NCBI GenBank assembly: GCA_964385685.1
Contig: CAYLQD010000002.1
Span: 20,704-84,703 of the forward strand
Reading direction: 5' to 3'
DNA: 64,000 nt
Source: an uncultured Planctomycetota bacterium
Lineage (GTDB): Bacteria > Planctomycetota > PUPC01
Within the stretch, counting starts at the first letter, position 1. Every line of letters begins with the position of its first letter. Below the pieces are notes generated by a model. The model was given only the letters and a program-made list of their open reading frames with translations. It searched no databases and was not told where the DNA came from. Shown here in pieces: positions 2,177 to 61,329 of the stretch. Both the position numbers and the translations under genes were made by a program.

Positions 2177-3367
2177 ATGCGATTGCGGATTGCGGCCCGC
2201 CTTCGCCAGAGTTTCGGCGGGCAAGATGTCGGCCCGCCTTCGCCAGAGCTTCGGCGGGCAAGATTGCGGAAACGGCTCGGTCGGCGGCGTGTGTCCGCCC
2301 TGCCCCATGCCGCGGTTCGCGCCCGCCGCGCGTTCACGCTCGTCGAGGTCCTCATCGTCGTCGCCATCTCGGCCGTGCTGTTCATGTCGCTGGCCACGTT
2401 CGCGACCCGCAGCATCCAGACGACCGAGGTCTTGCAGGAGCAGAACCTGGCCTCGCACACCGGCCGGATGGCCCTCCTCCGCATCACGCGGGAGGCCGCG
2501 CTCGCCAAAGTCATCACCGCGGCGGAGGAGTATACGCTCAGCTTCACATGCACGGACGTCACGGGCGACGGCGCCGACGACGCGCTAATCTATGCGTGGG
2601 ATCCTGGAACACGGACGCTCACGCGCGTGCTCAACGGCGTCACGGAAACGTTTGCCGAGAACGTGGACCTGTTCCTGCTTGAGTACGAGTACGAGACCGA
2701 GAATCAGGTGACAATTGCGTCGGCCGGCGACGTCCTTCCGTTCACCGTAGGCAAGTTCGACGGAACCGAATACGCGATCGATGGCAACTTCTACCTCGAC
2801 ATCTGGAACAATTGGGCCGCCCACTATTTCGTTAGCGAGGCCGGACTCCCGTCGGTGGACTCGGTCACCGTGCGGGCCGCCCGCAAAGTCGAAGGCGTGC
2901 CGACGGCGGACATGATCATCGCCCTGCACGACGATGCAACCGGCCAAGCGCTGGCCCTGGGCCGGCTACATCCGTCGCAACTGACGACCTCCTTCACCGA
3001 CATCACCGTGCCGATGACGTGGATGGGCGGCGAGGGCGTCGAGATTCAGCCCGACACGATCTATCGCCTCTATACGATCCCCGACGGCTGGAGCGGAGAA
3101 TACGCCGGCTCCATCCTCGTCGCGCGGCTCGAAGAGCCGGAACTCCCGGAAGGATGCGGATGGTGGTTCGCCAATGTGGGCAGTCCCATCACGCCAAAAC
3201 GCGACTGGACCATGTACTTCAACCTGAGCGGCAACCTACCGGTCGCGACGCCGCGCCGGAGCACCGTGCCCGTGTCGATCCTCAAGAAGATCAAGCTCAC
3301 GATCACGACGACGGAAGGCGACCAGCAGACGACGGTCGTCAGGTCGTGTAAGGTGGTGAATCAGTGA
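2177..3367 (+). CDS. Minor pseudopilin (GspJ/PilW-like); true start possibly GTG at 2291
   Basis: 'ARRA|FTLVEVLIVVAISAVLFMSLA' prepilin motif, 396-aa ORF. The 5' end contains a 35-bp tandem duplication (2193-2264) that makes ATG 2177 doubtful. Confidence 0.55.
   Translation: MRLRIAARLRQSFGGQDVGPPSPELRRARLRKRLGRRRVSALPHAAVRARRAFTLVEVLIVVAISAVLFMSLATFATRSIQTTEVLQEQNLASHTGRMALLRITREAALAKVITAAEEYTLSFTCTDVTGDGADDALIYAWDPGTRTLTRVLNGVTETFAENVDLFLLEYEYETENQVTIASAGDVLPFTVGKFDGTEYAIDGNFYLDIWNNWAAHYFVSEAGLPSVDSVTVRAARKVEGVPTADMIIALHDDATGQALALGRLHPSQLTTSFTDITVPMTWMGGEGVEIQPDTIYRLYTIPDGWSGEYAGSILVARLEEPELPEGCGWWFANVGSPITPKRDWTMYFNLSGNLPVATPRRSTVPVSILKKIKLTITTTEGDQQTTVVRSCKVVNQ
2193..2264 (+). repeat. Perfect-but-one 35-bp direct tandem repeat (period 37)
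   Basis: cggcccgccttcgccagag[t/c]ttcggcgggcaagat at 2193-2227 and 2230-2264, flanked by gattgcgg on both sides. Confidence 0.85.
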
Positions 3368-4590
3368 AGCGACGGAATGCCGAGTCCGGGATGATCTTTA
3401 TCGCCGCCCTCGTCCTGCTGGCGGGGATGTCGGTCGTCGTCATCGCCATCGCCCACGAGGTCTCGCTCGACCTCAGGATGACGGGAGGGCTGATCGACAA
3501 CGATCAGTCGCTCGAGATCGCGAAAGTCGGAATCGACAAGATCGTCTACGCGATCAACAACGACCCGAACTGGCGGACGACGTACACGAGCGGCACGACC
3601 TACGGGCCGTTCGGGCTCGAACTCGGGACGTTCGAGGTGACCCTCACCGACGAGGACGGCGACCTGACGGACTCGCTCGTCGACTCCGTCACGGTTGAGT
3701 CCGTCGCCGAGTACCAAGGCACCACGCAAGCGGTCTCCGCTGTCCTCCGCCCGCCCGCCGGCGACTCGATGATGTACCTGGCGGCGATGTGGGACACGGG
3801 CAAGAAGATCGAACTCAAGAATGGTCCCCGGGTCTACGGCGACCTGATGTCCGCCGACGACGTCTCCGTCAACGGGCCGTTACCCGACTTCCGCGGCGAC
3901 ATCTACTGCCGCGACCCCAACACGGTCGACCCACAACTGATCGACGCCGATACAAGTGTGATCACGATCTCGCCAACGCCGGCCGACCCCAATCCCGACT
4001 TCGACTGGTTCATCGCGCGCGGGCAGCGGATGATGCCCCCTGTGTTCGGCGACAAGTACGTGATTGCCGACAAGGTCATCTCGCCGACGTCCAATCCCTA
4101 CGGCTTCACGAGCGCGAACGGCATCTACTACATCCAGGCCAACAAGGAGACGCGTTTCGTCCGGTGCCACATCACGGCCACGATCGTGGTGGTCACAAAC
4201 CACGAGGTGTGGTTCGACGAAGCGTGCGTCCACTCGCCGGCCTCGCCCGAGTACCCGGCCCTTCTGTCGGACCGGAAGGTTCACTACGACCTCGACCGGA
4301 ACCTCTCGGAGCCGCAGAGCGGCGTCGACTTCAACGGCGACGGCGACCAGCAAGATGTGTTCACCCCCTCGGTGAACGGGGTCATCTATGCGAAGGAGAG
4401 GTTCACGGGACTTCAGGAGGACGGCGGGACGAACACAGTCCGTTTCAAGGGAACGATCATCGCCAGGGAGATCATCATGATCGGCTCCGGCTGCATCTTC
4501 GAGCAGGACCCGGCCCTGTCGACGGGCCTCGTCGAGCAGTTCCAGGGCGAGGGCGTCAAGCTTGTGCCGGGCACGTTCAAGATCGAATGA
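3364..4590 (+). CDS. GspK-like minor pseudopilin
   Basis: N-terminus 'MKRRNAESGMIFIAALVLLAGMSVVVIAIAHEV' (charged leader plus hydrophobic helix, as in GspK). About 400 aa. ATGA overlap with the upstream gene. Confidence 0.5.
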   Translation: MKRRNAESGMIFIAALVLLAGMSVVVIAIAHEVSLDLRMTGGLIDNDQSLEIAKVGIDKIVYAINNDPNWRTTYTSGTTYGPFGLELGTFEVTLTDEDGDLTDSLVDSVTVESVAEYQGTTQAVSAVLRPPAGDSMMYLAAMWDTGKKIELKNGPRVYGDLMSADDVSVNGPLPDFRGDIYCRDPNTVDPQLIDADTSVITISPTPADPNPDFDWFIARGQRMMPPVFGDKYVIADKVISPTSNPYGFTSANGIYYIQANKETRFVRCHITATIVVVTNHEVWFDEACVHSPASPEYPALLSDRKVHYDLDRNLSEPQSGVDFNGDGDQQDVFTPSVNGVIYAKERFTGLQEDGGTNTVRFKGTIIAREIIMIGSGCIFEQDPALSTGLVEQFQGEGVKLVPGTFKIE

Positions 4591-4599
4591 GGACGACGC

Positions 4600-5130
4600 A
4601 TGTTTGCTGACGCGCCAACACGCAGACGGCCGCACGGCTTCACGCTCGTCGAGGTCGTCCTGACGGTCTTCATCGTCGGGGTTGGGCTCGTGGCCTCGCT
4701 GCAGGTGCTCCCGGTGCTGATTCGGACGTCCGAGGCGGCAAGCGAGCGTCTAGTCGCTCAGGGGCTCGCGACCGAACTCCTCGCCGAGATCGCCATGCTC
4801 CCCTTCGAGGACCCGGACGGGAGCGTGAAGTTCGGGCCGGAGGACAACGAAGACCCGACCACGAGGGCCGATTTCGACGACATCGATGACTACGTGTTCT
4901 GGCAGGCCTCGCCGCCGCAGAAGAAGGACGGGAGCCCCGAACCGGACGCCTCCGGCTACACCCGCGCCGTGATGGTCAACAGCGTCGAACATGACGACTT
5001 CAACCAGTACAGCGCCCCGGACACGAACAAGCCGAAGCGAATTGCCGTTATCGTCACGCGGCCCGACGGGACGCCAATCGTCATAACCACCGTCCGGCTC
5101 AAAGGTTCCAACCGAGAGGACCTGGAGTAG
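4600..5130 (+). CDS. GspI-like minor pseudopilin
   Basis: 'PHG|FTLVEVVLTVFIVGVGLVASL' prepilin motif, small (176 aa) protein. Confidence 0.6.
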   Translation: MFADAPTRRRPHGFTLVEVVLTVFIVGVGLVASLQVLPVLIRTSEAASERLVAQGLATELLAEIAMLPFEDPDGSVKFGPEDNEDPTTRADFDDIDDYVFWQASPPQKKDGSPEPDASGYTRAVMVNSVEHDDFNQYSAPDTNKPKRIAVIVTRPDGTPIVITTVRLKGSNREDLE

Positions 5131-45742: not shown

Positions 45743-47677
45743 TCAGTCGTCTTCGCGCGCCGGCTTCGGGGCGTCCTTCGCGGCCTCGAGCGCCTTCAGG
45801 ACCGCTGCGTCGTCGGGGAACGAGTCGCGGAGCAGATCGCTCGCCGCCCTCCGCATATGCTCGTCCTTCGCGCTCTTGAGCTTGGCGAGGAGCATGTCAC
45901 GCGCGGCGGTGCCCGCGATGCCGGTCGGACTGCCGGCCCGGAGCTTCGGGTCGGTTTGCGCGATGCCGGTGAAGCGTAAGGTGCGGTAGGCGAAAATGGG
46001 CTTCGACGATTCCTGTGCTCCGGCGTCCCAGGCCTCCTGCATGGTCTTGGCCGCGGCCTTGAAGTCGCCCGCGGTCGCCTGGGCGCAGGCAAGCGTGTCC
46101 ATGCAGCCCGCGAGGAAATCGTCATCGGCGGGCAGCGTGTCGACCGCCTTCTGCGCCAGCTCGAGGCCGAGCTTCTTGTCACGGGCCTCCGGCCGCCACG
46201 CAGTTGCCAGCTTCCACGCGATGTTGTTGAACTCCATCGCATCGTCGATGGTGCCCGCGATCCGCCGGACCTCGTCCCGCTTGCCCTGCATCATCGCGAG
46301 CGCGAGGGCGGCGGCCTTGCTGCGGGGCATCTCCTCCACAAGCTGCTTGGCTATCTCGAGCGCCCGCTTCGGGTTGTGAATGGCGGGGTCCGGATTGGCG
46401 AACATCTGCCACGCGACGAACTTCCGCTCCCCGTAGCTGAGCGTGTCCATCGACTCGAGCAGCAGGATGCGTGTCACCCAGGCGAGGTCTTCGGGCCAGT
46501 AGTACGAAACGTAGTCGAGGGCCAGCACACTCGAGGCGTAGCCGATGCCGCGCCGCAGCAGCGCGAGCCGGTAGAAGAGCGGGAGCCGCTCTTTCCGTGG
46601 GAGCGCCTGGACGAACACGTGCATGGGCCCGGTCGGCTCGGTCCGCGGACCCCACCGCATCGCGAAGTCGACGAGGTCCTCGGTCAGCTCGGTCCGCTGA
46701 AGCATGCAGGCGAGAAGATACACCCGCCATCGCTGGTCGGAGTCTCCGACACGGAGGGCGCGGCGCAGGGCCGCGAAGTCGGGCCTCGTCTCGAGCATCA
46801 GGCGGTCGGTCTCGTCCATCGCATCGCCATCGCCCCCCTCGCCGCCCTCGCGCCCGATCAACGTGAGTGCCTTCATCCACCGGCGCAGGCGCTTCTCGTA
46901 GTCGTTCGCCGGGGCGTCGGGCTCGGGCGTGTACGTGATGCCGATCGGCGCCGCCGCGAGTTCGACCTGCTCAAGTTCCCATGCCTCCGCGTTCAATTCC
47001 TCCTCGTCGTGGTCGGGCGCCCGTTTGCCGCTGTAGAATCGGAGATGCGCCACGACCTTGGCCGGTGTTGCCGCGGGATCGCTGGGGTCGGCGTCCATCA
47101 GCACCGAGAAGCTCTCGCCCGGCTTGACTTCCCGGCCGAACGGCTTGCCCTTCCTCGCATACAACGGCCGTTCCGGCAGAACGTCTTCGTCTGCCTCAAA
47201 GGCCGGCCCTTTCGCGCCGGGCGGTCGGGCGACAAGTTCCCACCCGAACGGCAGCACGTAGACGGAGCGCTTGCTCGCGTTTCGCAGGGAGATCCAGAGC
47301 GTGACGACGTCGCCCTTGCGCGGGCTGCCGACCGCGAGCGCCGACAGCGTCACGCCCGACACCGGTTCGCCCGGTTTGCCCGCGATCTTCTGGAGCGCGG
47401 CCTGCGCCGCCCGGACAAGTCCCAGGTCCTGACCGTGCAGGACTTTCATCAGCGCGGGCAGCGCTTTGTCGCCGAGCCCCGCCAGCCGGCGCTCGGCCGA
47501 CGCGCGGACCGCGGGCTCATCGCTGTTGAGAAGCCGCAGAAGGCGGACGATGGATGAGCCACCGCGCGAGCCGCCCGGCCGGCCCCGCGGCCCGCTCCAC
47601 GCGGGCGCCGTCGCAGCACCGAAGACGAGAACGATGAGCAGCCCGAGCGTCAGCAACTTCGATGGCGAGCGTGACAT
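45743..47677 (-). CDS. Hypothetical secreted protein (HEAT/TPR-like helical repeats)
   Basis: Signal peptide 'LLTLGLLIVLVFGAATAPAWS'. 644 aa. No catalytic motif recognised. Confidence 0.45.
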   Translation of the reverse strand: MSRSPSKLLTLGLLIVLVFGAATAPAWSGPRGRPGGSRGGSSIVRLLRLLNSDEPAVRASAERRLAGLGDKALPALMKVLHGQDLGLVRAAQAALQKIAGKPGEPVSGVTLSALAVGSPRKGDVVTLWISLRNASKRSVYVLPFGWELVARPPGAKGPAFEADEDVLPERPLYARKGKPFGREVKPGESFSVLMDADPSDPAATPAKVVAHLRFYSGKRAPDHDEEELNAEAWELEQVELAAAPIGITYTPEPDAPANDYEKRLRRWMKALTLIGREGGEGGDGDAMDETDRLMLETRPDFAALRRALRVGDSDQRWRVYLLACMLQRTELTEDLVDFAMRWGPRTEPTGPMHVFVQALPRKERLPLFYRLALLRRGIGYASSVLALDYVSYYWPEDLAWVTRILLLESMDTLSYGERKFVAWQMFANPDPAIHNPKRALEIAKQLVEEMPRSKAAALALAMMQGKRDEVRRIAGTIDDAMEFNNIAWKLATAWRPEARDKKLGLELAQKAVDTLPADDDFLAGCMDTLACAQATAGDFKAAAKTMQEAWDAGAQESSKPIFAYRTLRFTGIAQTDPKLRAGSPTGIAGTAARDMLLAKLKSAKDEHMRRAASDLLRDSFPDDAAVLKALEAAKDAPKPAREDD

Positions 47678-52144: not shown

Positions 52145-53527
52145 TCACATCTTCACCGACAGGGCCGGGAAGCCCGAGTTGGACAGATGCTTCAGCGTCT
52201 TCGCGACGAAATCCACATGCTCGTCCGTCGGACGCCCGGACGCGAGGTCGAAACACTCGGTGTAGCTCTTGCCGATCGACGCGGTCGCGAGCCCATCTTC
52301 GTATTTCGGGAGCAGCGCGTTGGCGAGGTCGCTCGCCTCGGCCCGCGTCATGCCCGCGCTCGCGAGCGCCATGTCCGTCGTGACGCGCATCTCCATCGGC
52401 GTCACGTAGTCCGCCACGGTCGCCTTCGCCGGATGCGGCGTCTGAATCGACACGCCCGACGCGATCATCGCCGGAATGAACGCGGCGCTCTCGTAGTAGA
52501 ACGACTCCGTCATCGGGCCGCCGGCGTTGTAGGCGAGAGTGAGCGTCGGCATCGTCGTGTTTCGCGAGATCGCCTGCGAACTGGCGGCCGTCGCCCAGAT
52601 CACGTCGCGTGTGGTTGAGCAACTGGTGTTGACGTGCACCGGGAGCGAGAGGTAGTAGTTGCACTGATAGACGAGCATCCCGAAGAAGACGTAGGCCGTG
52701 TTGAGGATGGCGGTGCCTTCGGGGCCGCCGGCGTATCCGCCCAGCATCGGGGCGCTCGCCAGCACGACGTTGTATTCCGAACTCAGGCCCCAGACCGCCT
52801 TGGCCATCATCTCGCGGTTGGTCTTGAACTCGGCCAGTGAGCCGATGATGATGCAGTCGCTCGGCCGGAGCACAAACTGTGCGGCCGCGGCGGCAATGGT
52901 CGCCGTTGCGCTGCCGGCGGTCGCGATGCCGTTGATGATCGGCAGGCCAGGCCGGCCGGCGTCGCGGCACGCCGCGCGGGCAATCTTGAGCGACCGAATG
53001 GCTCCGAGAATCTCCGTCGGTTGCCCCGTGACAATCGCCCGCCCGTCGATCCTGTCGAGCGCGTTCACACTCATCGAATCGGCCGCCCGGATCAAGGCAT
53101 TCCCTCGGACGATCTTGTACGCGATCTCCTCGCTCGACGCGACGATGCCGGAGCCGACGTGGCACCACGGCCGCGCGCTGCTGTCGGGCTTACGCGAGCG
53201 GAAGATGCGGGCCTCCTTGCCCTCGCCGAAACGGCAGTCGCCGTTGTACGTCGCGACGGCTTCGAGCACCTCCTCGCGGGTGAAGCGGATGACGCTCTGT
53301 GTGTCCTGGAAGTACACACCGCACTCGACGAAGAAATCGACGGCCGCGTCGAAGACCTTGTCGGCGAGCGCGTCGTCCGACGGGACGGGCGTGTCGGGGT
53401 CGTAGCGGATGTCGTACTTCCCGACGAGCCGCTTCAGGGTCGCGTAGACGTTACCGAGGTCGAACGTTTCGACCGGCAGCTCCGGGCCCTTCTGCGCCCG
53501 GTCGCATACCTCAAGAAGACTGATCAT
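52145..53527 (-). CDS. MtmB-family (monomethylamine methyltransferase-like) protein, no in-frame UAG, paralog 1
   Basis: 'FVECGVYFQDTQSVIRFTREEVLEAV' (compare MtmB LVECGVYCTDTERVCKFTEEEIWDAI), 'GRPGLPI', 'PMLGGYAGG', 'IGKSYTECFDL'. 460 aa, uninterrupted. Confidence 0.7.
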   Translation of the reverse strand: MISLLEVCDRAQKGPELPVETFDLGNVYATLKRLVGKYDIRYDPDTPVPSDDALADKVFDAAVDFFVECGVYFQDTQSVIRFTREEVLEAVATYNGDCRFGEGKEARIFRSRKPDSSARPWCHVGSGIVASSEEIAYKIVRGNALIRAADSMSVNALDRIDGRAIVTGQPTEILGAIRSLKIARAACRDAGRPGLPIINGIATAGSATATIAAAAAQFVLRPSDCIIIGSLAEFKTNREMMAKAVWGLSSEYNVVLASAPMLGGYAGGPEGTAILNTAYVFFGMLVYQCNYYLSLPVHVNTSCSTTRDVIWATAASSQAISRNTTMPTLTLAYNAGGPMTESFYYESAAFIPAMIASGVSIQTPHPAKATVADYVTPMEMRVTTDMALASAGMTRAEASDLANALLPKYEDGLATASIGKSYTECFDLASGRPTDEHVDFVAKTLKHLSNSGFPALSVKM

Positions 53528-53536
53528 TGCGGCCCC

Positions 53537-54913
53537 TCACTGGTGCTTCAGTGCGAAACCCATCGAGCGGAGTTCTCCCATTGCCTCGCCGTAGAGGTCA
53601 ACGTATTCCTGGCACGGCCGCCCGGTGACGACGTCGTGGCAGTCATGGTACTTCTTCCCGATGGGGGCGTCGTCGATCGTGTCCTCGTACATCGTCAGGA
53701 GCTTCTTCACGATCCCGTTGGCGTCCTCGCGTTTCATCCCGACCGTCGCTTCGGTGATCTCGACCGAACCGCGCATTTCCATCGGGGTGATGTAGTCGTT
53801 GAGGACGGCCTTTGCCGGGTGCGTGGTCTGGACGGACAGCCCCGACGGTATCGCGGTCGCGATGTAGGCGGCGCTCTCATAGAAGAACTGCTTGGTCATC
53901 GGCCCCGCAGAGATGTAGCCCAGCGACCAAACGAGTTCCTTCGTGTTGCGGCTGATGGCCTGCGAACTCACGGCCGTGCACCAGAGGACGTCGCGCATCG
54001 TGGAGCAGCCCCGACTGATGTGCACGGGGAATGTCAGATGATAGTCGCAGTTGAGCAGCACAAGCCCGACCAGCCGGTACGCGACGTTCACCACGGCCGT
54101 GCCCGCAGGGCCGCCGGCATAGCCACCGACGAGCGGGCCCGACTCGTTGCCGATGTTGGCGCCCCAGCTCTGGAGATACGTCGCTTTGTTGAGCGTGCCC
54201 ATGTCGAACTTCATCTCGGCCATCGCACCGACGAGCCAGCCGTCGGATGGGCGAAGCCCGAACTGCGGACCACTGGCCGCAATCGCCGCCATCGACGTTC
54301 CCGCGGTCGAGATGAGGTTGCCGATGGCCAATCCCGGCCGGCCGGCGTGTTGAAGCGCATCACGGGCCACCTCGATTCCGCGGATCGCACCCATGATCTC
54401 CGTCGGCATGCCGGACGTGACCATGTAGCCGTGGACGGTCTCCAGCGCGGGCACGCTGATGGAGTTCGCCTGCCTGATGCCGGCATAGTCTCGAACCAGG
54501 TTGAAGGCAATCCGTTCTTCCGTGTTGACGATGCCGCTGCCAACGTGGTACCACGGCCGCGTGTCGCTGTCGGGCAAGCGGGGCGTCCACTCGAAGCGAT
54601 CTTTCCCTTCCCCCATGATGCAGCGGCCGCGAGCGTTCGCGACCGCGTGGAGAATCTCTTCGCGCGTGAACTTGATGATCCTGTGGGTATCGGTGCAGTA
54701 GACGCCGACGGCGGCAAGAAAGTCGACGGCCGCCTGATACGTGCGGTCGGCGAGGTCGTCGTCGGCCGGGACCGGCGTCTCGGGGTCGTACACGATGCCG
54801 TATTTCTCGCGCAGGTTTCGCGCGTTCGCGTAGACGACATCGAGGTCGAACTCATCCGACGTCATGGCCGGGCCGTCCTGCGCCCGCCGGCAGATTTCGG
54901 GCATTCCGATCAT
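53537..54913 (-). CDS. MtmB-family methyltransferase-like protein, paralog 2
   Basis: 'AVGVYCTDTHRIIKFTREEILHAV', 'GRPGLAI', 'PLVGGYAGG', 'IGKKYHDCHDV'. 458 aa, uninterrupted. Confidence 0.7.
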   Translation of the reverse strand: MIGMPEICRRAQDGPAMTSDEFDLDVVYANARNLREKYGIVYDPETPVPADDDLADRTYQAAVDFLAAVGVYCTDTHRIIKFTREEILHAVANARGRCIMGEGKDRFEWTPRLPDSDTRPWYHVGSGIVNTEERIAFNLVRDYAGIRQANSISVPALETVHGYMVTSGMPTEIMGAIRGIEVARDALQHAGRPGLAIGNLISTAGTSMAAIAASGPQFGLRPSDGWLVGAMAEMKFDMGTLNKATYLQSWGANIGNESGPLVGGYAGGPAGTAVVNVAYRLVGLVLLNCDYHLTFPVHISRGCSTMRDVLWCTAVSSQAISRNTKELVWSLGYISAGPMTKQFFYESAAYIATAIPSGLSVQTTHPAKAVLNDYITPMEMRGSVEITEATVGMKREDANGIVKKLLTMYEDTIDDAPIGKKYHDCHDVVTGRPCQEYVDLYGEAMGELRSMGFALKHQ

Positions 54914-54934: not shown

Positions 54935-56065
54935 TTACTTGAGCGTCACGTCCATCTCATCGATCACGTCCCGGATGGCGGCGAGGAGGTCCTTGACGTC
55001 CGGCTCGAAGATCCGCCCGATGTTGCCGATTCGGAAGCAGTCGGCGCTGCTGACCTTCCCGGGATAGATGACGTAGTCGCGCTCGTTAAGCCCCTCGTAG
55101 AACTTCTCGAACGTGAAGTTCGGGTCCTTGGGGAAGCGGAACGAGGTGATGATGACGCCCTGGTCTTCGGGCGCGAGGTACTCCTCGAACCCCATCGCAC
55201 GCATGCCGGCGACGAGGGTCTCGTAGTTTGCCTTGTAGCGCGCGTGGCGCGCGGCGACGCCCCCCTCGGCCTCAAGCTCCGCGAGCGCCTGGCGGAACGC
55301 GACGAGCGAGTGCGTCGGTGGCGTGAACCGGAATTGCCCGTTCTTCTCGAACCCTTCGTACTGCGCCAGCAGGTCGAAGCTCAAGCTCCGTGCGTAGCCC
55401 TTCGTCTCCCGAAGCGAGCTGATCTTCGCCAGCACGAACGAGAAGCCGGGCACGCTCTCGATGCACTTGTTCGCCGACGAGACGAGATAGTCGATCCGGC
55501 AGGCGGGCAGATTGACGGGCACGGCCCCGAAGCTGCTCATCGCGTCGACGAAGAACTTCGCCCCGGCGGCGTTGACGACCGCGCCGATCTCCTCGAGCGG
55601 ATTCATGATGCCCGTCGTCGTCTCGCAGTGCGTGAGCGAGACGGTCGTGATGGCCGGGTCGGCCTCGAGCGCCGCCTCGACCGCGGCCGGGTCGGGCGTC
55701 GTGTTCTCTGCGAACTCGAGCCGGGCGACGTCGACCTTGAGCACCTCGGCCATCGTCGCGATCCGCTTGCCGTAGGCGCCGTTGATGATAACGAGCAGCT
55801 TGCCGCCGGGCGGAACGGTCGAGCCGACGACGGCCTCGAGCCCGAACGTGCCGCTGCCCTGCATGAGAACTGCGGTGTATTCGTCGGTGCCGGCCTCGCC
55901 CAGTTCGACGAGCCCGTCGCGGATTTCGCGGATGATGCGGATGAACTCGTAGTCGCGCGAGCCGAGGTCCCGCAGCATGGCTTGTTTGACGGCTCGGCTG
56001 GTGGTGAGCGGGCCGGGCGTGAAGAGGAGCTTGTCCTTGGCTCCGGGGATCCTGGCGGCTGTCAT
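54935..56065 (-). CDS. phnW: 2-aminoethylphosphonate:pyruvate aminotransferase
   Basis: 'LLFTPGPLTTSRAVKQAML', 'SSANKCIESVPGFSFV', 'GGVAARHARY', 'VIYPGKVSSADCFRIGNIG' are near-identical to enterobacterial PhnW blocks. GGAG RBS before ATG 56065. Confidence 0.85.
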   Translation of the reverse strand: MTAARIPGAKDKLLFTPGPLTTSRAVKQAMLRDLGSRDYEFIRIIREIRDGLVELGEAGTDEYTAVLMQGSGTFGLEAVVGSTVPPGGKLLVIINGAYGKRIATMAEVLKVDVARLEFAENTTPDPAAVEAALEADPAITTVSLTHCETTTGIMNPLEEIGAVVNAAGAKFFVDAMSSFGAVPVNLPACRIDYLVSSANKCIESVPGFSFVLAKISSLRETKGYARSLSFDLLAQYEGFEKNGQFRFTPPTHSLVAFRQALAELEAEGGVAARHARYKANYETLVAGMRAMGFEEYLAPEDQGVIITSFRFPKDPNFTFEKFYEGLNERDYVIYPGKVSSADCFRIGNIGRIFEPDVKDLLAAIRDVIDEMDVTLK

Positions 56066-56360
56066 TCGCGCGTCTCCAAGGCCGCTGCTGGCCCTGATTG
56101 AAGGGCACAGCTTACATAGTCGGTCTTGGCGGCGCAACAGAATTCCGCCGCGCACGGGCGATTTGCGGAAGTCTGGCGGGGGCGGGCGTTGATCTAGCGG
56201 AAATTGTCACGTGGGCGGCCGAGAAGCATGCCGCGCGCGTTGTTGACGCGGACCTCTCCCGTGGTGTGGACGTTCGGTCGGCGCCTTGGGCGCTTGCATT
56301 AGGTGCGCCGACGATGTACGCTGGGGCCGACACGCCAACTTTGCAGAGGGAGGAGACACG

Positions 56361-56792
56361 ATGAGATGCCCCCGCGACGGCACGGCTCTGGCGAAGGTCG
56401 AGCTCTTCGGCCTCGAACTCGACAAGTGCCACAAGTGCGACGGCCTCTGGTTCGACCGCGGTGAACTCGACAAGATCCGCGACGCGAACGTGCGGGACGT
56501 CGAGGAGGTGCTCGAGGACAAGTACGGGGACCCCGAGTTCGAGGAGGGAACCGTCGACGGCTACATGCAGTGCCCCCGCTGCGACGGCCGGCTGCGGCGG
56601 CAGAACTACACGTACGATGACCCCGTCGAGATCGATTGCTGCCTGAAGTGCTACGGAGTCTGGATCGACAACGAGGAACTGAACGCCATCCTCTCGGCCA
56701 AAGCCGAACTCGACGAAGACGACGAGCAGGTGCGCACAGGCATGCTCAAGCGGTTCCTGGGCAAGATCTCCGGCCGCAAGCCGGGGGCCTGA
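56361..56792 (+). CDS. Zinc-ribbon protein with duplicated 'CPxC...C.C.G.WFD..EL' modules (zf-TFIIB-like)
   Basis: GGGAGGAG RBS then ATG 56361. 'CPRDG..CHKCDGLWFDRGEL' and 'CPRCDG..CLKCYGVWIDNEEL'. Confidence 0.5.
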   Translation: MRCPRDGTALAKVELFGLELDKCHKCDGLWFDRGELDKIRDANVRDVEEVLEDKYGDPEFEEGTVDGYMQCPRCDGRLRRQNYTYDDPVEIDCCLKCYGVWIDNEELNAILSAKAELDEDDEQVRTGMLKRFLGKISGRKPGA

Positions 56793-56890
56793 CGATGTTC
56801 CGCAAATTCCGGGCCCGCTGATGCGTCTAACCCATCGACGCCGCTTGGTGAAGGCGCACGCCGTCGCTCCTTGCCGTGTCATTGCCCACT

Positions 56891-57009: not shown

Positions 57010-60000
57010 ATGTCCACAGGACCAGTTGCGGCGACGCCGTCCGACGGCGGCCCGACCACGGTCGCCGGCTATGAGATCATCTCCAAGATCGGCGAGGACG
57101 CCGTCGGGACCGTCTTCAAGGCGCGGCAGCTCTCAACGGACCGCCTCGTCGCGCTGAGAGTCGTCAACGCGAAGATGGCGGCCGACAAGCCGTTTATGGA
57201 CAGCTTCCTGCGCGACGCCCGGGTCGCGGCCGGGCTCAAGCATCCGAACATCATCGAGGTGTTCGACGCGGGGACGGCCGAAGGCCAAGCGTACCTCGCG
57301 ATGGAGCTCGTTGCCGGGCGGGACCTCAAGAAGCTTCTCGCCACGACCGGCGCATTGGAGCAGCAGCGGGCGCTCGAGATCTCCCGCGACATCGCCCAGG
57401 CGCTCGACTGCATCCACCAGGCGGGCGTGGTCCATCGCAACGTCCGGCCCGAGAACATCTTCGTCGGAAGCGACGGCGCCGCGCGGCTCACGGGTCTGGG
57501 CGCCGCCCACCGGCCCAATGTCGGTGTCCTGGGCCAGCCGGGTTCCGGCGCCGCGCGCGAAGCCGCCGACTATGTGTCGCCGGAGGAGGCGCGGGGCGGC
57601 GAGGGCATCGACGCTCGCGCCGACATCTACTCCGTCGGCGCCACTTTGTACCACATGTTGACAGGCGACCCGCCCTTCACGGGCAAGGCGGCCGCTGACG
57701 TGCTGTCCAAGCACGCGACGACCCCCGCGCCCAATCCCTGCGCGGCCGCGCCCGGCGTCTCGGCGCACGCGGCTGCCCTCATTCACAGGACGATGGCGAA
57801 GGATCCCGCGAACCGCTACGGGAGCGCCCACGAGCTGCTGGCCGACCTGAAGCTGTTGCTCGGATGGGCGGCCGAGCCGGCCGCTCCGCGATCGAGTGCG
57901 CCCGACACCCGCGCGGACCTCGGCCTGAGGGACAAAGAGCCGCCTCGCAAATCGAGTGCGCCCGACATCCGCGCGGACCTCGGCCTGACGGACGAAGAGC
58001 CGCCTCGCAAACGGCGCGGCCTGGTCGTCGGCGTCCTCGGGCTCGTCCTGCTCGCGGCGGCCGTGGGGCTCGGAGTCATGTTCTTCCCCGAATCGACACC
58101 GGAACAGAGCCCCGAGGAACAGGAGTTTGCAGCCGTCCGGAAGTGGGTCGCGGACAATCCGGGCAAATACCACGCCGCCCAGGAGAAGTACCGCCGCCTT
58201 CAGAGCACCGTCACCGATCCCGACCGCAAACGCCGAATCAAGGAGACCCTGCTCGAACTCGAGGTCGAGCGCGGCCGGGCCGCGGACGCATTCTTCGCCG
58301 AACTCGAGTCGACGGCAAACAAGCTGGCGGAGCGCCGCGACTATGGCAAGGCCGTCGGTCTCTATCGGAATCTTCCGCCGCAGTTCAAGGACGGCCTCCT
58401 TCCGCGGGCCAGCGAGGCGATCGCAGCGCTCGAGGCCGCATCCAAATCGGCCCTGGCGATGCACATCAAGCGCGCCCGCCTGCTGCTCGAAGAGGAAGAC
58501 CCGATCGCGGGCCTCGAAGAGCTTGGCCGCGCCGACGACCTGATCCGCGGCGAGCCGCCGCGGGAGGTGGACGAACTCCGGGCCAACCTCGAGCGGGCCA
58601 TGGTGTGGCGGGCGCTGATCGCCAAGGAGCGCCTGGAGAAGGTGCTGGACGCCGTGGACGCGCTCGTTGCCGAGGGGAAGCTGGCCGACGCGGCCGGCAA
58701 GGCCCTGGCCGTTGCGAAGGACGCGGAGTCGGCTTACGCGCCGGCCACCGCGAAGAGCATCGCGGGAATCGGGGCCGCGCTGCGGCAGGCCGCGTCGGAC
58801 TCGAAGAAGCAGGTCGAAGCTCTCACGCCCGACGGCCATATGGCCGCCGCCATTCTCGCGCTCGCGGCGGGCCGGCCTGCCGAGATGGGGACGGCGATCA
58901 CCCGTGCCGACGCCCACGAGTTTCGCGTCCGCTACCTCGACAAGCTCGACGTTCTGAAGAAGCAGATCGCGCGGCGCGAGGCCGAAGAACGCCGGCGGCA
59001 GCTTGTTCAACTCACGGCGTTTCGGGCGACCCTGCCCGGCGAGTTGAAGAAGCGCAACTACAAGCCCCTGCTTGCCAGGTTGGATCAGATCATCGCCGAC
59101 CCCGATCTGTCGGCGATTCGCGAACACGCCGAGGCCGACCGGCGGATCCTCGCGCGGCTCGCGGCGACGCTCGACCGCATCCGGCTGAACGTCCGCACCG
59201 AGGCGGGCAAGGCGAAGAAGACCCCGACACGCCGCCGAGGCATCCCGGCGACGATCACGAAGTATGATCCCGCGACCGACACGGTGACGTTCAGCGCCGG
59301 CGCGCCGGAGGCGATCGCGTCGATGCGGGCCGTCGACCTGGCGAGCTTGCTCGGCCTCGACCCGGGCCCGGCCGAGCAGCACCACGAGAGCGTCGCGCTT
59401 CTCCTCATCGCGTCCGGCGAGCCGAAGGCGGCCGAATCCCACGCCGCGAAGGTCGCACAGCGCACCAACCTCGACCGCCTCAACACGATGCTGGCCCCGC
59501 CCGGACGCGCGGATGACGAGATCGACGTCGCCGCCGCAGTCGAGGACGACACGACCGACGAGGCGGCCTCGACCGAGAAGGTCGTGAAGAAGGTGCTGGG
59601 CGAGGACTGGAAGCCGGCCGAGGAGCCAGAGCAGTTCAAGGGCTCGCTCATCCCCGGCTACGACGACGCATTCCTGAAGCAGGGGAGGTGGGCGGAGGGG
59701 CGGGCGTACTACACGGAGCAGTTGACCGGGGTCCTCTCAGCCAAGAAGCCCGACCTGCTCGCCGCTCAGCGGTTGCTGTACGCCCAGGACGTGTGCCAGC
59801 TCTTTCCCGCGGTCGCGGGCGGGGCGCCGTCGCCCGAGGACCGCCCCTTCGCACAGTGGCTCCTGGCGCATCCGAGCCTCGTAAGGAAGCTCGTCGCGGC
59901 CGTTCGGCCCGGCGACAATCCCGCGGGGATCTTCCGCATGCTGTACCTGATCAAGACCAAGGCCCCGGTGAAGAAGGTGACGCATGAGAATCTGATGGTG

Positions 60001-61329
60001 GCCTTCGCGATCGTCTATGACGACAAGGTGAAGAACCTCGACGTCAAGGGCGACGCCGGAAAGGCCGTGAGCCATTTCCGGTATTGCGTGAGGAACGCCG
60101 AGCGGTTTCCGGGCGATCCCCGGACGATCCCCGTCGTGCTGCTCAAGTACATGGTGAACAACGTGGTGTCATCGGAAGAGCGGAAGTGGGCCACGTCGCG
60201 CCACGGCAGAGGCACCAGCCCGACCTTGCTCTACTCGGGCATCAAGTATGACATGAAGGCATTCAAGAAGGGGGCGAGCGAGAGCCGGAACTGGCAGCTC
60301 CGTGAGAAGGCAGGATACACGCTCAAGAGCATCAAGAATTACGGCGGCATATGCGTCGATCAGGCGTACTACACCGTCGGCGTGTCCCGGAGTTGGGGGA
60401 TTCCGGCGACGGTCTTCAGCGGGCGAGAGGTCGAGAAGGGCATCGGACACGCGTGGGCCAGCACGGTCAAGCGGCGCGGCTCGCGGTGGACGTGGATCGA
60501 CGCCGGCCGGTACGGGGGCCGCAGGGGCTACGTCACCGGCACGACCGTCAACCCTCAGACCGGGCACCGCGTGTCGGACCGCGACTGCTGGCTGGAGGCG
60601 CAGGCGGCCGGGCTCTCGGAGGACCGCCGCCAACGCTCACGCCTTTTCCTTCAGGCCGCCCTGCTGATGGAGGGGCAGAAGAACGACGCCCAGGCGATCA
60701 AGTACCTCCGGCTCGCCGTCGCGCTCAACCCCTACTCGGCCGACGCGTGGAAGACCGTGGCCCGCTTCTGTGCGGAACGAAAGCTCAAGCCCGCCGCCGG
60801 CGCCGCTCTCTACCGGATGATGCTCGTCCGATTCAAGAACCATCCCGTCCTCACGAAGCAGGTCCTCGATCAGGTGCGCTCGCTCGCGCCCAAGTCCGAC
60901 GCGAAGCGACATCTGATGCTCTTCGAGATCACCTGGGACCAATACCGGCGGCGGCACCCGGATGTCGCTGCCGTTGTGATGGCCGAGAAGGCCGATTACC
61001 TGATGACGCTCGGGAAGCCCGGGATGGCGCTCGAGGCGTACCGCGACGTCGTGATGAGGTACCGGAAGAACGGCCCGGTCGTCGAGATGCTTCTGCCTCG
61101 CGCGGAAGAGGCCTACCGGTCCCGGAAGAAGGTCAAGAGATACATCGACCTGGTCGAGCGCGTGATGGGCGCGTACAGCAGACTCCGAAACTCGTCGATG
61201 CGCAACATGGCCTACCAGAGAACGACCTACTACAAGGTCGCGACGCACCTGCGGGATTTGTATGGGGAGGTCGGAAATGACAAGAAACGCCGCCGTTACG
61301 AGGAGTTGACCGAGCCCATCCACAAATGA
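57010..61329 (+). CDS. Ser/Thr protein kinase-like (predicted pseudokinase) - TM - helical/TPR-like - transglutaminase-like fusion protein (1440 aa)
   Basis: Kinase fold 'YEIISKIGEDAVGTVFKA', 'LVALRV' (VAIK K->R), 'HRNVRPENI' (HRD D->N), 'GLG' in place of DFG, 'SPE'. TM 'GLVVGVLGLVLLAAAVGLGVMFF'. C-terminus 'GICVDQAYYTVGVSRSWGIPA...GHAWAS' is a transglutaminase-like Cys-His core. Confidence 0.7.
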   Translation: MSTGPVAATPSDGGPTTVAGYEIISKIGEDAVGTVFKARQLSTDRLVALRVVNAKMAADKPFMDSFLRDARVAAGLKHPNIIEVFDAGTAEGQAYLAMELVAGRDLKKLLATTGALEQQRALEISRDIAQALDCIHQAGVVHRNVRPENIFVGSDGAARLTGLGAAHRPNVGVLGQPGSGAAREAADYVSPEEARGGEGIDARADIYSVGATLYHMLTGDPPFTGKAAADVLSKHATTPAPNPCAAAPGVSAHAAALIHRTMAKDPANRYGSAHELLADLKLLLGWAAEPAAPRSSAPDTRADLGLRDKEPPRKSSAPDIRADLGLTDEEPPRKRRGLVVGVLGLVLLAAAVGLGVMFFPESTPEQSPEEQEFAAVRKWVADNPGKYHAAQEKYRRLQSTVTDPDRKRRIKETLLELEVERGRAADAFFAELESTANKLAERRDYGKAVGLYRNLPPQFKDGLLPRASEAIAALEAASKSALAMHIKRARLLLEEEDPIAGLEELGRADDLIRGEPPREVDELRANLERAMVWRALIAKERLEKVLDAVDALVAEGKLADAAGKALAVAKDAESAYAPATAKSIAGIGAALRQAASDSKKQVEALTPDGHMAAAILALAAGRPAEMGTAITRADAHEFRVRYLDKLDVLKKQIARREAEERRRQLVQLTAFRATLPGELKKRNYKPLLARLDQIIADPDLSAIREHAEADRRILARLAATLDRIRLNVRTEAGKAKKTPTRRRGIPATITKYDPATDTVTFSAGAPEAIASMRAVDLASLLGLDPGPAEQHHESVALLLIASGEPKAAESHAAKVAQRTNLDRLNTMLAPPGRADDEIDVAAAVEDDTTDEAASTEKVVKKVLGEDWKPAEEPEQFKGSLIPGYDDAFLKQGRWAEGRAYYTEQLTGVLSAKKPDLLAAQRLLYAQDVCQLFPAVAGGAPSPEDRPFAQWLLAHPSLVRKLVAAVRPGDNPAGIFRMLYLIKTKAPVKKVTHENLMVAFAIVYDDKVKNLDVKGDAGKAVSHFRYCVRNAERFPGDPRTIPVVLLKYMVNNVVSSEERKWATSRHGRGTSPTLLYSGIKYDMKAFKKGASESRNWQLREKAGYTLKSIKNYGGICVDQAYYTVGVSRSWGIPATVFSGREVEKGIGHAWASTVKRRGSRWTWIDAGRYGGRRGYVTGTTVNPQTGHRVSDRDCWLEAQAAGLSEDRRQRSRLFLQAALLMEGQKNDAQAIKYLRLAVALNPYSADAWKTVARFCAERKLKPAAGAALYRMMLVRFKNHPVLTKQVLDQVRSLAPKSDAKRHLMLFEITWDQYRRRHPDVAAVVMAEKADYLMTLGKPGMALEAYRDVVMRYRKNGPVVEMLLPRAEEAYRSRKKVKRYIDLVERVMGAYSRLRNSSMRNMAYQRTTYYKVATHLRDLYGEVGNDKKRRRYEELTEPIHK
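57891..58010 (+). repeat. Near-perfect 60-bp tandem duplication inside the pseudokinase gene (encodes SSAPD[TI]RADLGL[RT]D[KE]EPPRK x2)
   Basis: Copy 1 is 57891-57950 and copy 2 is 57951-58010, with 4 mismatches. Confidence 0.8.

What the first reader, a model, noticed from the sequence alone, without database searches (positions are those of the whole stretch)
57010..61329. 1440-aa predicted pseudokinase - TM - helical repeat - transglutaminase-like fusion with an internal 60-bp tandem duplication
The N-terminal Ser/Thr-kinase fold has substitutions at all three key catalytic positions: VAIK Lys->Arg (LVALRV), HRD Asp->Asn (HRNVRPEN), and DFG->GLG. A single TM follows, then about 900 aa of helical/TPR-like extracytoplasmic sequence ending in a transglutaminase-like Cys-His core (GICVDQ...GHAW). 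Between kinase and TM there is a near-perfect 60-bp tandem repeat (57891-58010), suggesting recent slippage or expansion. This looks like a signalling scaffold that couples a cytoplasmic pseudokinase to a periplasmic cysteine-protease/transglutaminase-like domain. A PP2C phosphatase gene lies about 2 kb away.
Basis: seen in the sequence. Interest (0 to 1): 0.6.

Follow-up and report, generated by a model that had tools for sequence, protein, structure and literature searches.

The report
Pseudokinase fused to transglutaminase-like enzyme
A 1,439-residue membrane protein from an uncultivated, probably planctomycete, bacterium joins a catalytically dead Ser/Thr-kinase domain inside the cell to an apparently intact cysteine-protease/transglutaminase-like enzyme outside it; these two parts are separate proteins in its relatives, which hints at an unstudied link between kinase-type receptors and a large family of secreted enzymes.

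Summary
ORF 57010-61329 (+) encodes 1,439 aa. It has a Hanks-type kinase domain (Pfam E 2.6e-39) carrying G30D, K50R, E69D, D144N, K146R and D162G, while its fold-defining residues are kept. It also has an in-frame 2 x 60-bp tandem duplication (57/60 identical) and a single TM helix (337-359).

Two things are new. First, the closest homologues (about 1,000 aa, 49-55% identical in the kinase domain) keep canonical VALK/HRDVKPDN/DLG, so the dead site is derived. Second, the "900 aa helical region" is really two modules. One is a roughly 475-aa ectodomain shared with those active kinases. The other is a roughly 560-aa module that elsewhere is a stand-alone, mostly signal-peptide-bearing protein of Planctomycetota and Verrucomicrobiota (993 clusters at E<=1e-30, annotated "hypothetical" or "TPR").

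AlphaFold models (pLDDT 87-89) and Foldseek place the core of that module in the transglutaminase/papain-like fold. Cys1115 and His1147 are invariant in 162-163 of 163 family members.

The gene is therefore a rare Rosetta-stone fusion, with one other, frame-disrupted example. It most likely tethers an active periplasmic Cys-His enzyme to a cytoplasmic pseudokinase scaffold. The signalling direction is inferred, not shown. I rate it a new variant of known kinds, of moderate interest.

The parts
57010..61329 (+). Whole gene, 1,439 aa plus stop: pseudokinase, duplicated linker, TM, ectodomain, acidic linker, TGase-like/TPR module
   Evidence: identical gene called in three assemblies
57070..57840 (+). 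Hanks-type kinase-like (pseudokinase) domain, residues 21-277
   Evidence: Pfam PF00069 E 2.6e-39; PknB structures E 9e-50
57091..57114 (+). Degenerate glycine-rich loop GEDAVGTV (G30D)
57157..57159 (+). Arg50 in place of the beta3 (VAIK) lysine
57214..57216 (+). Asp69 in place of the alpha-C glutamate
57433..57456 (+). HRNVRPEN: catalytic-loop Asp replaced by Asn144 and Lys by Arg146; Asn149 retained
57493..57501 (+). GLG in place of DFG/DLG (D162G)
57891..58010 (+). In-frame 2 x 60-bp tandem duplication in the juxtamembrane linker; encoded unit SSAPD[T/I]RADLGL[R/T]D[K/E]EPPRK
   Evidence: TRF score 221; 57/60 identical, 3 non-synonymous differences
58018..58086 (+). Single transmembrane helix, residues 337-359, with RKRR on the N-terminal side
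   Evidence: hydropathy scan
58087..59511 (+). Ala/Leu/Arg/Glu-rich ectodomain (residues 360-834) shared with active-kinase homologues; no Pfam or PDB match
59512..59649 (+). Acidic linker and fusion junction (residues 835-880); homology to stand-alone proteins starts near EEPEQFKGSLIPGYDD
   Evidence: alignment A2; tblastn
59650..61326 (+). C-terminal module (residues 881-1439) homologous over its full length to stand-alone ~610-aa secreted proteins
   Evidence: AF2 pLDDT 87.2, pTM 0.85
60304..60579 (+). Transglutaminase/papain-like core (residues 1099-1190): Cys helix followed by beta-strands
   Evidence: Pfam PF01841 22.1-22.7 bits; Foldseek top hits 3ISR, TglA, TG2/TG3, FXIIIa, TgpA
60352..60354 (+). 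Cys1115, predicted nucleophile (GICVDQ)
   Evidence: 162/163 conserved; aligns to the Cys of GVCRDFA in 3ISR; at the N-terminus of a helix
60448..60450 (+). His1147 (GHAW)
   Evidence: 163/163 conserved; at the start of a beta-strand
60499..60501 (+). Asp1164 (WIDAGR), candidate third triad residue
   Evidence: D 118, E 16, N 15 of 163; aligns to the Asp of FDATR in 3ISR
60580..61326 (+). TPR-like alpha-solenoid (residues 1191-1439)
   Evidence: TPR_14 28.2 bits on the fragment; Foldseek TPR hits; all-helical model

Best explanation
The gene encodes a bitopic inner-membrane protein that arose by fusion of two proteins that are separate in relatives.

Module 1 is a receptor-type Hanks Ser/Thr kinase: cytoplasmic kinase domain, one TM helix, and a roughly 475-aa helical ectodomain. 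Module 2 is a secreted protein of about 600 aa with a helical N-subdomain, a transglutaminase/papain-like Cys-His-Asp core and a TPR-like solenoid.

In the fused protein the kinase domain has lost every residue needed for ATP/Mg binding and phosphotransfer, but it keeps its fold. The extracytoplasmic enzyme keeps its catalytic residues.

Most likely mechanism (inferred):
- The periplasmic Cys-His enzyme (a protease, or an acyl-transferase or deamidase) is held at the membrane.
- The pseudokinase acts as a non-catalytic dimerisation and docking platform. It may be a substrate or partner of active paralogous kinases through its Ser/Thr-containing, duplicated juxtamembrane segment, as in MviN-FhaA.
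- This would couple cytoplasmic state to the position, oligomeric state or activity of the outside enzyme, or the reverse.
- In unfused relatives, the kinase ectodomain and the secreted enzyme are predicted to interact.

Shown here: the architecture, the derived loss of kinase residues, the fusion, the fold and the conservation of the Cys/His site. Inferred: topology, catalytic competence of the outside enzyme, the scaffold role and the direction of signalling.
For: - Kinase fold with a dead site. The protein departs at 7 of 22 positions that are >=90% conserved in 119 relatives. Five of these seven (G30, K50, E69, D144, D162) are canonical ATP-, Mg- or catalysis-related kinase residues. Structural invariants are kept (H142, R143, N149, G164, P191, E192, D205, R269).
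- Derived state: the nearest homologues P0002, P0003, P0004, L003b and L007 all have VALK/HRDVKPDN/DLG.
- Accelerated kinase-domain divergence in fused lineages. Kinase identity is 61-69% between active clades, 49-55% for the window and 36-47% for L004. The conserved ectodomain segment (window residues 645-835) stays at 48-56% in all pairs.
- Fusion: the C-terminal 580 aa matches stand-alone proteins of 604-624 aa at 49-53% identity over 97-100% of its length. One Planctomycetota MAG (GCA_043819695.1) carries an active kinase with this ectodomain (L007) and the stand-alone enzyme (P0126, L006) on different contigs.
- A second locus, L004/P0127, has the same order and junction.
- Extracytoplasmic location: one TM with the positive-inside pattern; 127 of 162 stand-alones have N-terminal hydrophobic segments.
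- Enzyme fold: AF2 pLDDT 87-89. Foldseek on the core returns 3ISR (prob 1.0), TglA, a microbial TGase, TG2/TG3, FXIIIa, CPR-C4, TgpA and the LapD-LapG complex entry (4u65).
- Active site: Cys 162/163 and His 163/163 conserved; Cys and Asp align to 3ISR.
- Not an assembly artefact: 100% identical DNA in three assemblies.
- Precedents for the proposed logic: MviN pseudokinase-FhaA (PMC12599244); LapD-LapG inside-out control of a periplasmic transglutaminase-like protease (PMC3032545, PMC4359373); membrane-anchored periplasmic TGase domain of TgpA (PMC3507681).
Against: - No experimental data and no conserved gene neighbourhood link the stand-alone enzyme genes to kinases.
- Sequence evidence for the TGase assignment is just below Pfam's cut-off (22.1-22.7 bits against 23), and Foldseek E-values are weak (1.4e-3).
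- The third triad residue is not invariant.
- The only other fused locus is split over three frames and its kinase part is far more decayed. The pseudokinase may therefore be dispensable.
- The NJ tree of the C-terminal module does not unite the two fused proteins (7 of 200 bootstraps), so the history of the fusion is unresolved.
- Pseudokinase domains are not rare among related multidomain kinases (roughly 7-12 of 119, depending on how many partially aligned rows are counted).
- Topology rests on hydropathy only.
Confidence: 0.6

Rival explanations
1. Relic anchor. The only selected function is to tether the TGase-like/TPR enzyme to the membrane, as in TgpA. The kinase-like domain is a decaying remnant with no scaffold or signalling role.
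For: The kinase domain evolves faster than the ectodomain in both fused lineages. In L004 the kinase-like region has lost K, HRD and DFG entirely, is not called as a gene, and the locus is split over three frames.
Against: In the window the 270-aa domain has no indels or stops. It still scores E 2.6e-39 against Pfam Pkinase and stays 55% identical to an active homologue. Five of its seven losses at conserved positions are canonical ATP/Mg/catalytic residues, and 15 of 22 conserved positions are kept. This is the pattern of a maintained pseudokinase rather than neutral decay.
Confidence: 0.22
2. Atypical but active kinase. Phosphotransfer is retained with non-canonical residues, as in WNK or CASK.
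For: Asn149 and the HR of HRD are retained. K50R, K146R and E69D are conservative in charge.
Against: The catalytic base (D144N), the Mg-binding Asp (D162G) and the beta3 Lys are lost at the same time, and an acidic residue sits in the G-loop. There is no compensating Lys in the G-loop, because K37 is also present in active homologues. The activation-loop Thr residues are lost. K-to-R and D-to-N are the classical kinase-dead mutations (established knowledge).
Confidence: 0.05
3. The TGase-like core is a non-catalytic binding module or a pseudo-enzyme, and the C-terminal half acts only as a TPR-type ligand-binding sensor for the receptor.
For: The Pfam score is below the curated cut-off. The third triad position varies among D, E and N. 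A large TPR surface is present.
Against: Near-absolute conservation of G-x-C-x-D-Q and G-H-x-W in 163 diverse members is hard to explain without catalysis. Cys sits at a helix N-terminus and His on the following strand, as in active members of the fold.
Confidence: 0.1
4. Assembly or annotation artefact. Two adjacent genes were joined by a mis-assembly or a sequencing error that removed a stop codon, and the 60-bp duplication is an assembler artefact.
For: The source is metagenomic. The architecture is very rare, with 2 of about 1,000 family clusters fused.
Against: Three assemblies made by different pipelines (JGI, ENA, Logan) are 100% identical over 7.5-10 kb, including the repeat and the junction. 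The kinase homologues' own ~170-aa C-terminal tail and the enzyme's signal peptide are both absent, so this is not simple read-through of neighbouring genes. L004 shows the same junction.
Confidence: 0.03

Closest known systems
PknB-type receptor Ser/Thr kinases (Hanks-type bSTKs with one TM and an extracytoplasmic sensor)
   Same: The N-terminal domain aligns end to end with PknB (E 9e-50). The order is the same: kinase, juxtamembrane linker, single TM, ectodomain. The nearest homologues are active kinases of this type.
   Different: All catalytic residues are replaced. The ectodomain is not PASTA and matches no known family. An enzyme module is appended.
MviN (Rv3910) pseudokinase / ActPs3 family (PMC12599244)
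   Same: A membrane-linked bacterial pseudokinase with all three catalytic motifs degraded. It is proposed to work as a scaffold through a phosphorylated tail that recruits an FHA protein, and it carries an extracytoplasmic domain.
   Different: The window protein is not an ActPs3 member: it has no activation-loop deletion, retains HR(N), and is not actinobacterial. It derives from an otherwise active family, and the partner module is a TGase-like enzyme rather than a flippase or carbohydrate-binding domain. None of the seven described bacterial pseudokinase families carries a transglutaminase domain.
TgpA of Pseudomonas aeruginosa (PMC3507681; PDB 6G49)
   Same: An inner-membrane protein that displays a transglutaminase-like Cys-His-Asp domain in the periplasm. 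6G49 is among the Foldseek hits.
   Different: TgpA is polytopic and has no kinase-like domain or TPR solenoid. Similarity is at the fold level only (E 0.29).
LapD-LapG system (PMC3032545, PMC4359373)
   Same: A cytoplasmic degenerate-enzyme receptor (inactive GGDEF-EAL) controls a periplasmic transglutaminase-like cysteine protease across the membrane by inside-out signalling. The LapD-LapG complex entry 4u65 appears among the fold hits.
   Different: There the receptor and the protease are separate proteins and the signal is c-di-GMP. Here they are covalently fused and the cytoplasmic module is a pseudokinase. There is no Pfam hit to the LapG family. This is an analogy of logic, not homology of the system.
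Transglutaminase-like superfamily PF01841 (e.g. Cytophaga hutchinsonii putative cysteine protease, PDB 3ISR)
   Same: Best structural match (prob 1.0). Cys and Asp align and His lies within 2 residues. Sub-threshold Pfam hits recur in many family members.
   Different: Scores fall just below Pfam's cut-off. The family has its own invariant signature (G-x-C-x-D-Q, G-H-x-W, G-R, P-Q, D1190), a ~220-aa helical N-subdomain and a ~250-aa TPR tail.

Membership tests
Hanks-type protein kinase fold (PF00069) | Full-length match to the kinase-domain profile above the curated cut-off | tested here: met
   135.7 bits against a cut-off of 31.7, residues 21-277 on profile positions 1-258 of 263; PknB E 9e-50
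Catalytically competent Ser/Thr kinase | beta3 Lys (VAIK) | tested here: not met
   Arg50; K in 94% of 119 relatives
Catalytically competent Ser/Thr kinase | Catalytic Asp of HRD | tested here: not met
   Asn144; D in 92% of relatives
Catalytically competent Ser/Thr kinase | Mg-binding Asp of DFG/DLG | tested here: not met
   Gly162; D in 91% of relatives
Catalytically competent Ser/Thr kinase | GxGxxG loop and alpha-C Glu | tested here: not met
   G30D and E69D
Pseudokinase (kinase fold lacking catalytic residues) | Fold retained with one or more catalytic residues lost | tested here: met
Pseudokinase (kinase fold lacking catalytic residues) | Absence of ATP binding and phosphotransfer | not testable with these tools
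   needs thermal-shift and 32P assays
Described bacterial pseudokinase families (ActPs1-3, GLW, CP1, DYD, DLHK; PMC12599244) | Family hallmarks: GLW replacing HRD with poly-Leu beta3 (GLW); activation-loop deletion (ActPs3); COG3899 link and no TM (CP1) | tested here: not met
   HRN and LVALR are present. The activation segment is about as long as in PknB. A TM is present and no COG3899-like domain is. DYD, DLHK and ActPs1/2 were not compared in detail.
Transglutaminase-like superfamily (PF01841) | Pfam score at or above the gathering cut-off (23 bits) | tested here: not met
   22.1 bits on the whole protein and 22.7 bits on the fragment; 6 of 19 aligned relatives and 7 of 10 further relatives give similar sub-threshold hits
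Transglutaminase-like superfamily (PF01841) | Papain/transglutaminase core fold | tested here: met
   Core model pLDDT 88.8. Foldseek top hits are 3ISR (prob 1.0), 9CRN TglA, 4XZ7, TG2/TG3, FXIIIa, CPR-C4 and 6G49; E-values are weak (>=1.4e-3)
Transglutaminase-like superfamily (PF01841) | Cys (helix N-terminus), His (strand), Asp (next strand) in this order | tested here: met
   C1115, H1147, D1164. Secondary-structure positions; alignment to 3ISR; conservation 162/163, 163/163 and 118/163 (D). The 3-D geometry could not be measured because no coordinates were available.
LapG-type BTLCP | Sequence match to the LapG/BTLCP family | tested here: not met
   No such Pfam family is listed at E<=1. 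Only a weak fold hit to the LapD-LapG complex entry 4u65.
TPR-like solenoid | TPR profile match or TPR fold | tested here: met
   TPR_14 scores 28.2 bits against 23.5 on the fragment. The whole-module Foldseek hits are TPR proteins. The region is all-helical from 1191 to 1439.
Bitopic N-in/C-out membrane protein | Single TM with positive-inside flank; extracytoplasmic C-terminal part | tested here: inconclusive
   One hydropathy peak at 337-359, RKRR before it and an acidic stretch after it. Stand-alone homologues carry signal-like N-termini. No dedicated topology predictor and no experiment.

The most novel reading that the evidence does not exclude
The fusion is a Rosetta stone. It would reveal that a large, uncharacterised PVC-superphylum family of secreted Cys-His enzymes (about 1,000 clusters) is the cognate extracellular partner of a family of receptor Ser/Thr kinases. 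In the fused protein, the pseudokinase would control periplasmic proteolysis or cross-linking from inside the cell. That would be a kinase-fold counterpart of LapD-LapG inside-out signalling, with the duplicated juxtamembrane segment acting as a phospho-docking site.
Probability: 0.15. Interest if true: 0.7.

Novelty: new variant of a known kind. Interest (0 to 1): 0.5.

Why it matters
Bacterial pseudokinases are barely studied experimentally, and a 2025 review (PMC12599244) lists only seven families, all of unknown function. This case is unusually readable, because active orthologues with the same ectodomain exist and the changes at the catalytic site can be compared directly.

The fusion also gives a first functional handle on two uncharacterised families:
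- a planctomycete receptor-kinase ectodomain;
- a family of about 1,000 clusters of secreted transglutaminase-like/TPR proteins in Planctomycetota and Verrucomicrobiota.

The fusion predicts that these two act together, and a simple binding experiment can test that. If the pseudokinase regulates the outside enzyme, it would be a new way to couple cytoplasmic state to envelope remodelling.

Tried and rejected
- The whole-module Foldseek search and the profile search of the PDB were swamped by TPR proteins. Cutting out the core solved this.
- The last homology search, with the ectodomain alignment A4, returned nothing, not even the known homologues. The association between a dead kinase and the fusion therefore rests on 2 fused against 5 unfused proteins.
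No strain variants were found, so repeat copy number could not be compared.
- The genome scan with A4 found a single locus. The source genome is not among the species representatives.
- Synteny between the window and loci of stand-alone or kinase homologues is negligible: only a 28%-identical Zn-ribbon protein.
- There is no conserved neighbourhood around stand-alone genes.
- PADLOC hits (PD-T4-6, mad6, PglW) reflect generic kinase similarity only. An anti-phage reading was rejected.
- The NJ tree could not settle whether there were one or two fusion events.
- Literature searches found no pseudokinase-transglutaminase fusion. The hits were Legionella SidJ and MavC, which are unrelated.
- Kwon et al. 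2019 was not held.
- The promoter and terminator scans were uninformative.
- The alternative start at 56821 was rejected, because it has no homology and disagrees with the gene calls.

Full report

Yes. The + strand ORF 57010-61329 translates without interruption into 1,439 aa. A longer reading from the ATG at 56821 is possible mechanically. However, the extra 63 residues are Arg-rich and have no homology. Homologues start at the position of M1 (MSTGP... against MPDQP.../MSSNA...). Three public gene calls use 57010, which follows a GGGGGG motif by 6 nt.

TRF reports a 60-bp unit in 2.0 copies at 57891-58011 (95% match, score 221). The copies are 57/60 identical and in frame, and encode SSAPD[T/I]RADLGL[R/T]D[K/E]EPPRK. 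All three differences are non-synonymous.

The same DNA, 100% identical over 7.5-10 kb including the repeat, occurs in a JGI, an ENA and a Logan assembly. The repeat and the long ORF are therefore not artefacts of a single assembler. No strain variation is visible.

**2. The kinase-like domain is a derived pseudokinase**

Residues 21-277 match Pfam Pkinase (E 2.6e-39) and align end to end with M. tuberculosis PknB structures (E 9e-50). In that alignment, and in a four-way alignment with the two nearest homologues, the following substitutions appear:

| Canonical element | Window residue |
|---|---|
| beta3 Lys | Arg50 |
| alpha-C Glu | Asp69 |
| HRD Asp | Asn144 |
| HRDxK Lys | Arg146 |
| DFG/DLG Asp | Gly162 |
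| second glycine of the G-loop | Asp30 |

The Thr-rich activation loop of the homologues is replaced by a Thr-free one.

I aligned 119 related kinases to the window domain. Of the 22 positions that are >=90% conserved, the window protein differs at seven: G30D, K50R, R65S, E69D, D144N, D162G and Q193E. Five of these seven are canonical ATP-, Mg- or catalysis-related residues. The other 15, which include the structural invariants H142, R143, N149, G164, P191, E192, D205 and R269, are kept. No compensating Lys is present, since K37 is also found in the active homologues.

The closest relatives have canonical GQGAMG, VALK, REA, HRDVKPDN and DLG. These are P0002, P0003 and P0004, the second kinase of L003, and the 1,026-aa protein of L007. 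They are 49-55% identical to the window in the kinase domain and share its ectodomain. The dead site is therefore derived within an otherwise active family.

The window protein does not fit the seven pseudokinase families reviewed in PMC12599244. That review mentions neither transglutaminase nor Planctomycetes.

**3. Topology**

A single hydrophobic peak at 337-359 is preceded by RKRR and followed by an acidic stretch. This favours N-in/C-out. It is a hydropathy argument only.

**4. The "900 aa helical region" is two modules, and the protein is a fusion**

Residues 360-834 are 43-44% identical to the ectodomains of P0002 and P0003 over most of that span. They are 47-48% identical to P0004 and to the N-terminal part of P0127 over the C-terminal ~190 residues. 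This ectodomain matches no Pfam family or PDB sequence.

Those homologues end in an unrelated ~170-aa tail. In the window that tail is replaced by an acidic linker (835-880) and a 560-aa module.

Searched alone, the C-terminal 580 aa finds stand-alone proteins of 604-624 aa at 49-53% identity over 97-100% of the query. An exhaustive profile search finds 5,361 relatives at E<=1e-3 and 993 at E<=1e-30. Their median length is 608 aa. Where named, they are "hypothetical" or "TPR repeat protein" of Planctomycetota and Chthoniobacterales. In 127 of 162 cases they begin with a hydrophobic signal-like segment, which independently supports an extracytoplasmic location.

One Planctomycetota MAG (GCA_043819695.1) has an active kinase with this ectodomain on contig 208 (L007) and the stand-alone enzyme P0126 on contig 51 (L006). 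That is the unfused state.

Only one other fused example appeared, L004/P0127. It has the same order and a similar junction (EEPEPFPGS against EEPEQFKGS). However, it is spread over three reading frames, and its kinase-like part lacks K, HRD and DFG altogether.

Pairwise identities show that the kinase domain has diverged faster in both fused lineages:

| Comparison | Kinase domain | Conserved ectodomain segment (residues 645-835) |
|---|---|---|
| Between active clades | 61-69% | 48-56% |
| Window against actives | 49-55% | 48-56% |
| L004 against actives | 36-47% | 48-56% |

An NJ tree of the C-terminal module did not join the two fused proteins (7 of 200 bootstraps). Whether there were one or two fusion events is unresolved.

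**5. The C-terminal module contains an apparently intact transglutaminase/papain-like active site**

Pfam Transglut_core hits residues 1099-1164 at 22.1-22.7 bits, against a cut-off of 23. Similar sub-threshold hits recur in many relatives.

AlphaFold2 models are confident: 580 aa at pLDDT 87.2 and pTM 0.85, and the 246-aa core at pLDDT 88.8 and pTM 0.89. Cys1115 lies at the N-terminus of a helix. His1147 and Asp1164 lie on the two following strands.

Foldseek with the whole module returns TPR proteins, with 3ISR at rank 41. With the core alone, the list is almost purely transglutaminase-fold enzymes:
- 3ISR (prob 1.0, E 1.4e-3);
- S. pyogenes TglA;
- a microbial TGase;
- TG2, TG3 and FXIIIa;
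- the CPR-C4 protease;
- the TgpA periplasmic domain;
- the LapD-LapG complex entry 4u65.

An ungapped phmmer alignment to 3ISR puts Cys on Cys (GICVDQA against GVCRDFA) and Asp on Asp (WIDAGR against IFDATR). The His is offset by two residues in a loop.

In 163 family members the conservation is as follows:

| Residue | Conservation (of 163) |
|---|---|
| G1113 | 163 |
| C1115 | 162 |
| D1117 | 163 |
| Q1118 | 162 |
| H1147 | 163 |
| W1149 | 163 |
| D1164 | D 118, E 16, N 15 |
| D1190 | 157 |

The window protein keeps all of them. Residues 1191-1439 form a TPR-like solenoid.

Strict Pfam membership narrowly fails, and the chemistry (protease, transamidase or deamidase) is unknown.

**6. Surroundings**

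- Upstream lies a double Zn-ribbon protein (56361-56792, +).
- Further upstream lie a class-V aminotransferase and two MtmB-family genes.
- Downstream and convergent lie rubrerythrin, a 73-aa ORF, phosphate acetyl/butyryl-transferase, and the 3' part of a 703-aa dCache-HAMP-SpoIIE (PP2C-family) phosphatase.

The "PP2C 2 kb away" is real. It is an RsbU-type sensor phosphatase on the other strand, separated by three unrelated genes, so nothing ties it to the fusion gene. No paralogue of any module lies elsewhere in the window. Loci of homologues show no conserved neighbourhood.

**7. How it most likely works**

Shown here:
- a bitopic architecture;
- a kinase fold with a derived dead site;
- a fusion to a family that is otherwise secreted;
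- a conserved Cys-His site.

Inferred:
- The outside enzyme is active and membrane-tethered, as in TgpA (PMC3507681).
- The pseudokinase is a dimerisation and docking scaffold, as in MviN. MviN's tail is phosphorylated by PknB and recruits FhaA (PMC12599244).
- The duplicated juxtamembrane unit carries Ser/Thr residues (S294, S295, T300, S314, S315) and could double such a docking site.

The fusion implies that, in relatives, the kinase ectodomain and the secreted enzyme act together. Once they were covalently joined, the catalytic output of the kinase may have become dispensable. A LapD-LapG-like inside-out control of a periplasmic transglutaminase-like protease is the most interesting version of this idea (PMC3032545, PMC4359373), but it is unproven.

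The main rival is that the pseudokinase is simply decaying. The state of L004 supports that rival. In the window, five of the seven losses fall on canonical ATP/Mg/catalytic residues, and this argues against it.

**8. Novelty and score**

Membrane pseudokinases, periplasmic transglutaminase-like enzymes and multidomain planctomycete kinases are all known. Degenerate kinase domains occur in several per cent of the related proteins.

What is new:
- this particular combination, for which no precedent was found in the literature searched;
- the clear active-to-dead transition;
- the Rosetta-stone link to a large uncharacterised family.

I rate it a new variant of known kinds, with interest 0.5.

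Noticed in passing
window 52145-53527 and 53537-54913 (-): Two tandem, full-length MtmB-family (monomethylamine methyltransferase, PF05369; E 7e-82 and 6e-94) genes without an in-frame stop, next to a class-V aminotransferase (54935-56155). These are non-pyrrolysine MtmB homologues in a probable Planctomycetota genome.
   Followed up: no
window 56361-56792 (+); L005 6474-6881: A double Zn_ribbon_TFIIB protein lies directly upstream of the fusion gene. A 28%-identical Zn-ribbon gene lies 1.6 kb upstream of the stand-alone TGase-TPR gene P0125.
   Followed up: partly
window 63503-64000 (-); L048 8260-9750: This is the 3' part of a 703-aa dCache_1-HAMP-SpoIIE phosphatase. A HAMP-SpoIIE gene also lies about 6 kb from the stand-alone homologue P0123. 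This could be chance, because such phosphatases are abundant in these phyla.
   Followed up: partly
L004 761-4981: The second fused locus is split over three overlapping reading frames (761-1954, 1473-2447, 2240-4981). Its kinase-like part (VELVV, no HRD, no DFG) was not called as a gene. It is a probable pseudogene or carries indel errors.
   Followed up: partly
L003 2820-8457: A tandem array of at least three paralogous kinase-TM-ectodomain genes sits directly after a phage-integrase-family gene.
   Followed up: no
L005 5889-6461; L047 7969-8475: LemA genes lie within 2-3 kb of stand-alone TGase-TPR genes in 2 of 6 contexts examined.
   Followed up: no
P0080 (residues 181-427) and others among P0002-P0120: Roughly 7-12 of 119 related multidomain kinases have degenerate catalytic residues. 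P0080 shows the same K-to-R, D-to-N and K-to-R pattern as the window protein.
   Followed up: no
window 58013-58073: TRF also reports a weak 27-bp periodicity (2.3 copies, 77% match) inside the TM-coding segment. It is most likely a by-product of repetitive Gly/Leu/Val codons.
   Followed up: no
window 45743-47677 (-): A 644-aa protein with an N-terminal signal-like segment and a weak HEAT_2 hit; otherwise unannotated.
   Followed up: no
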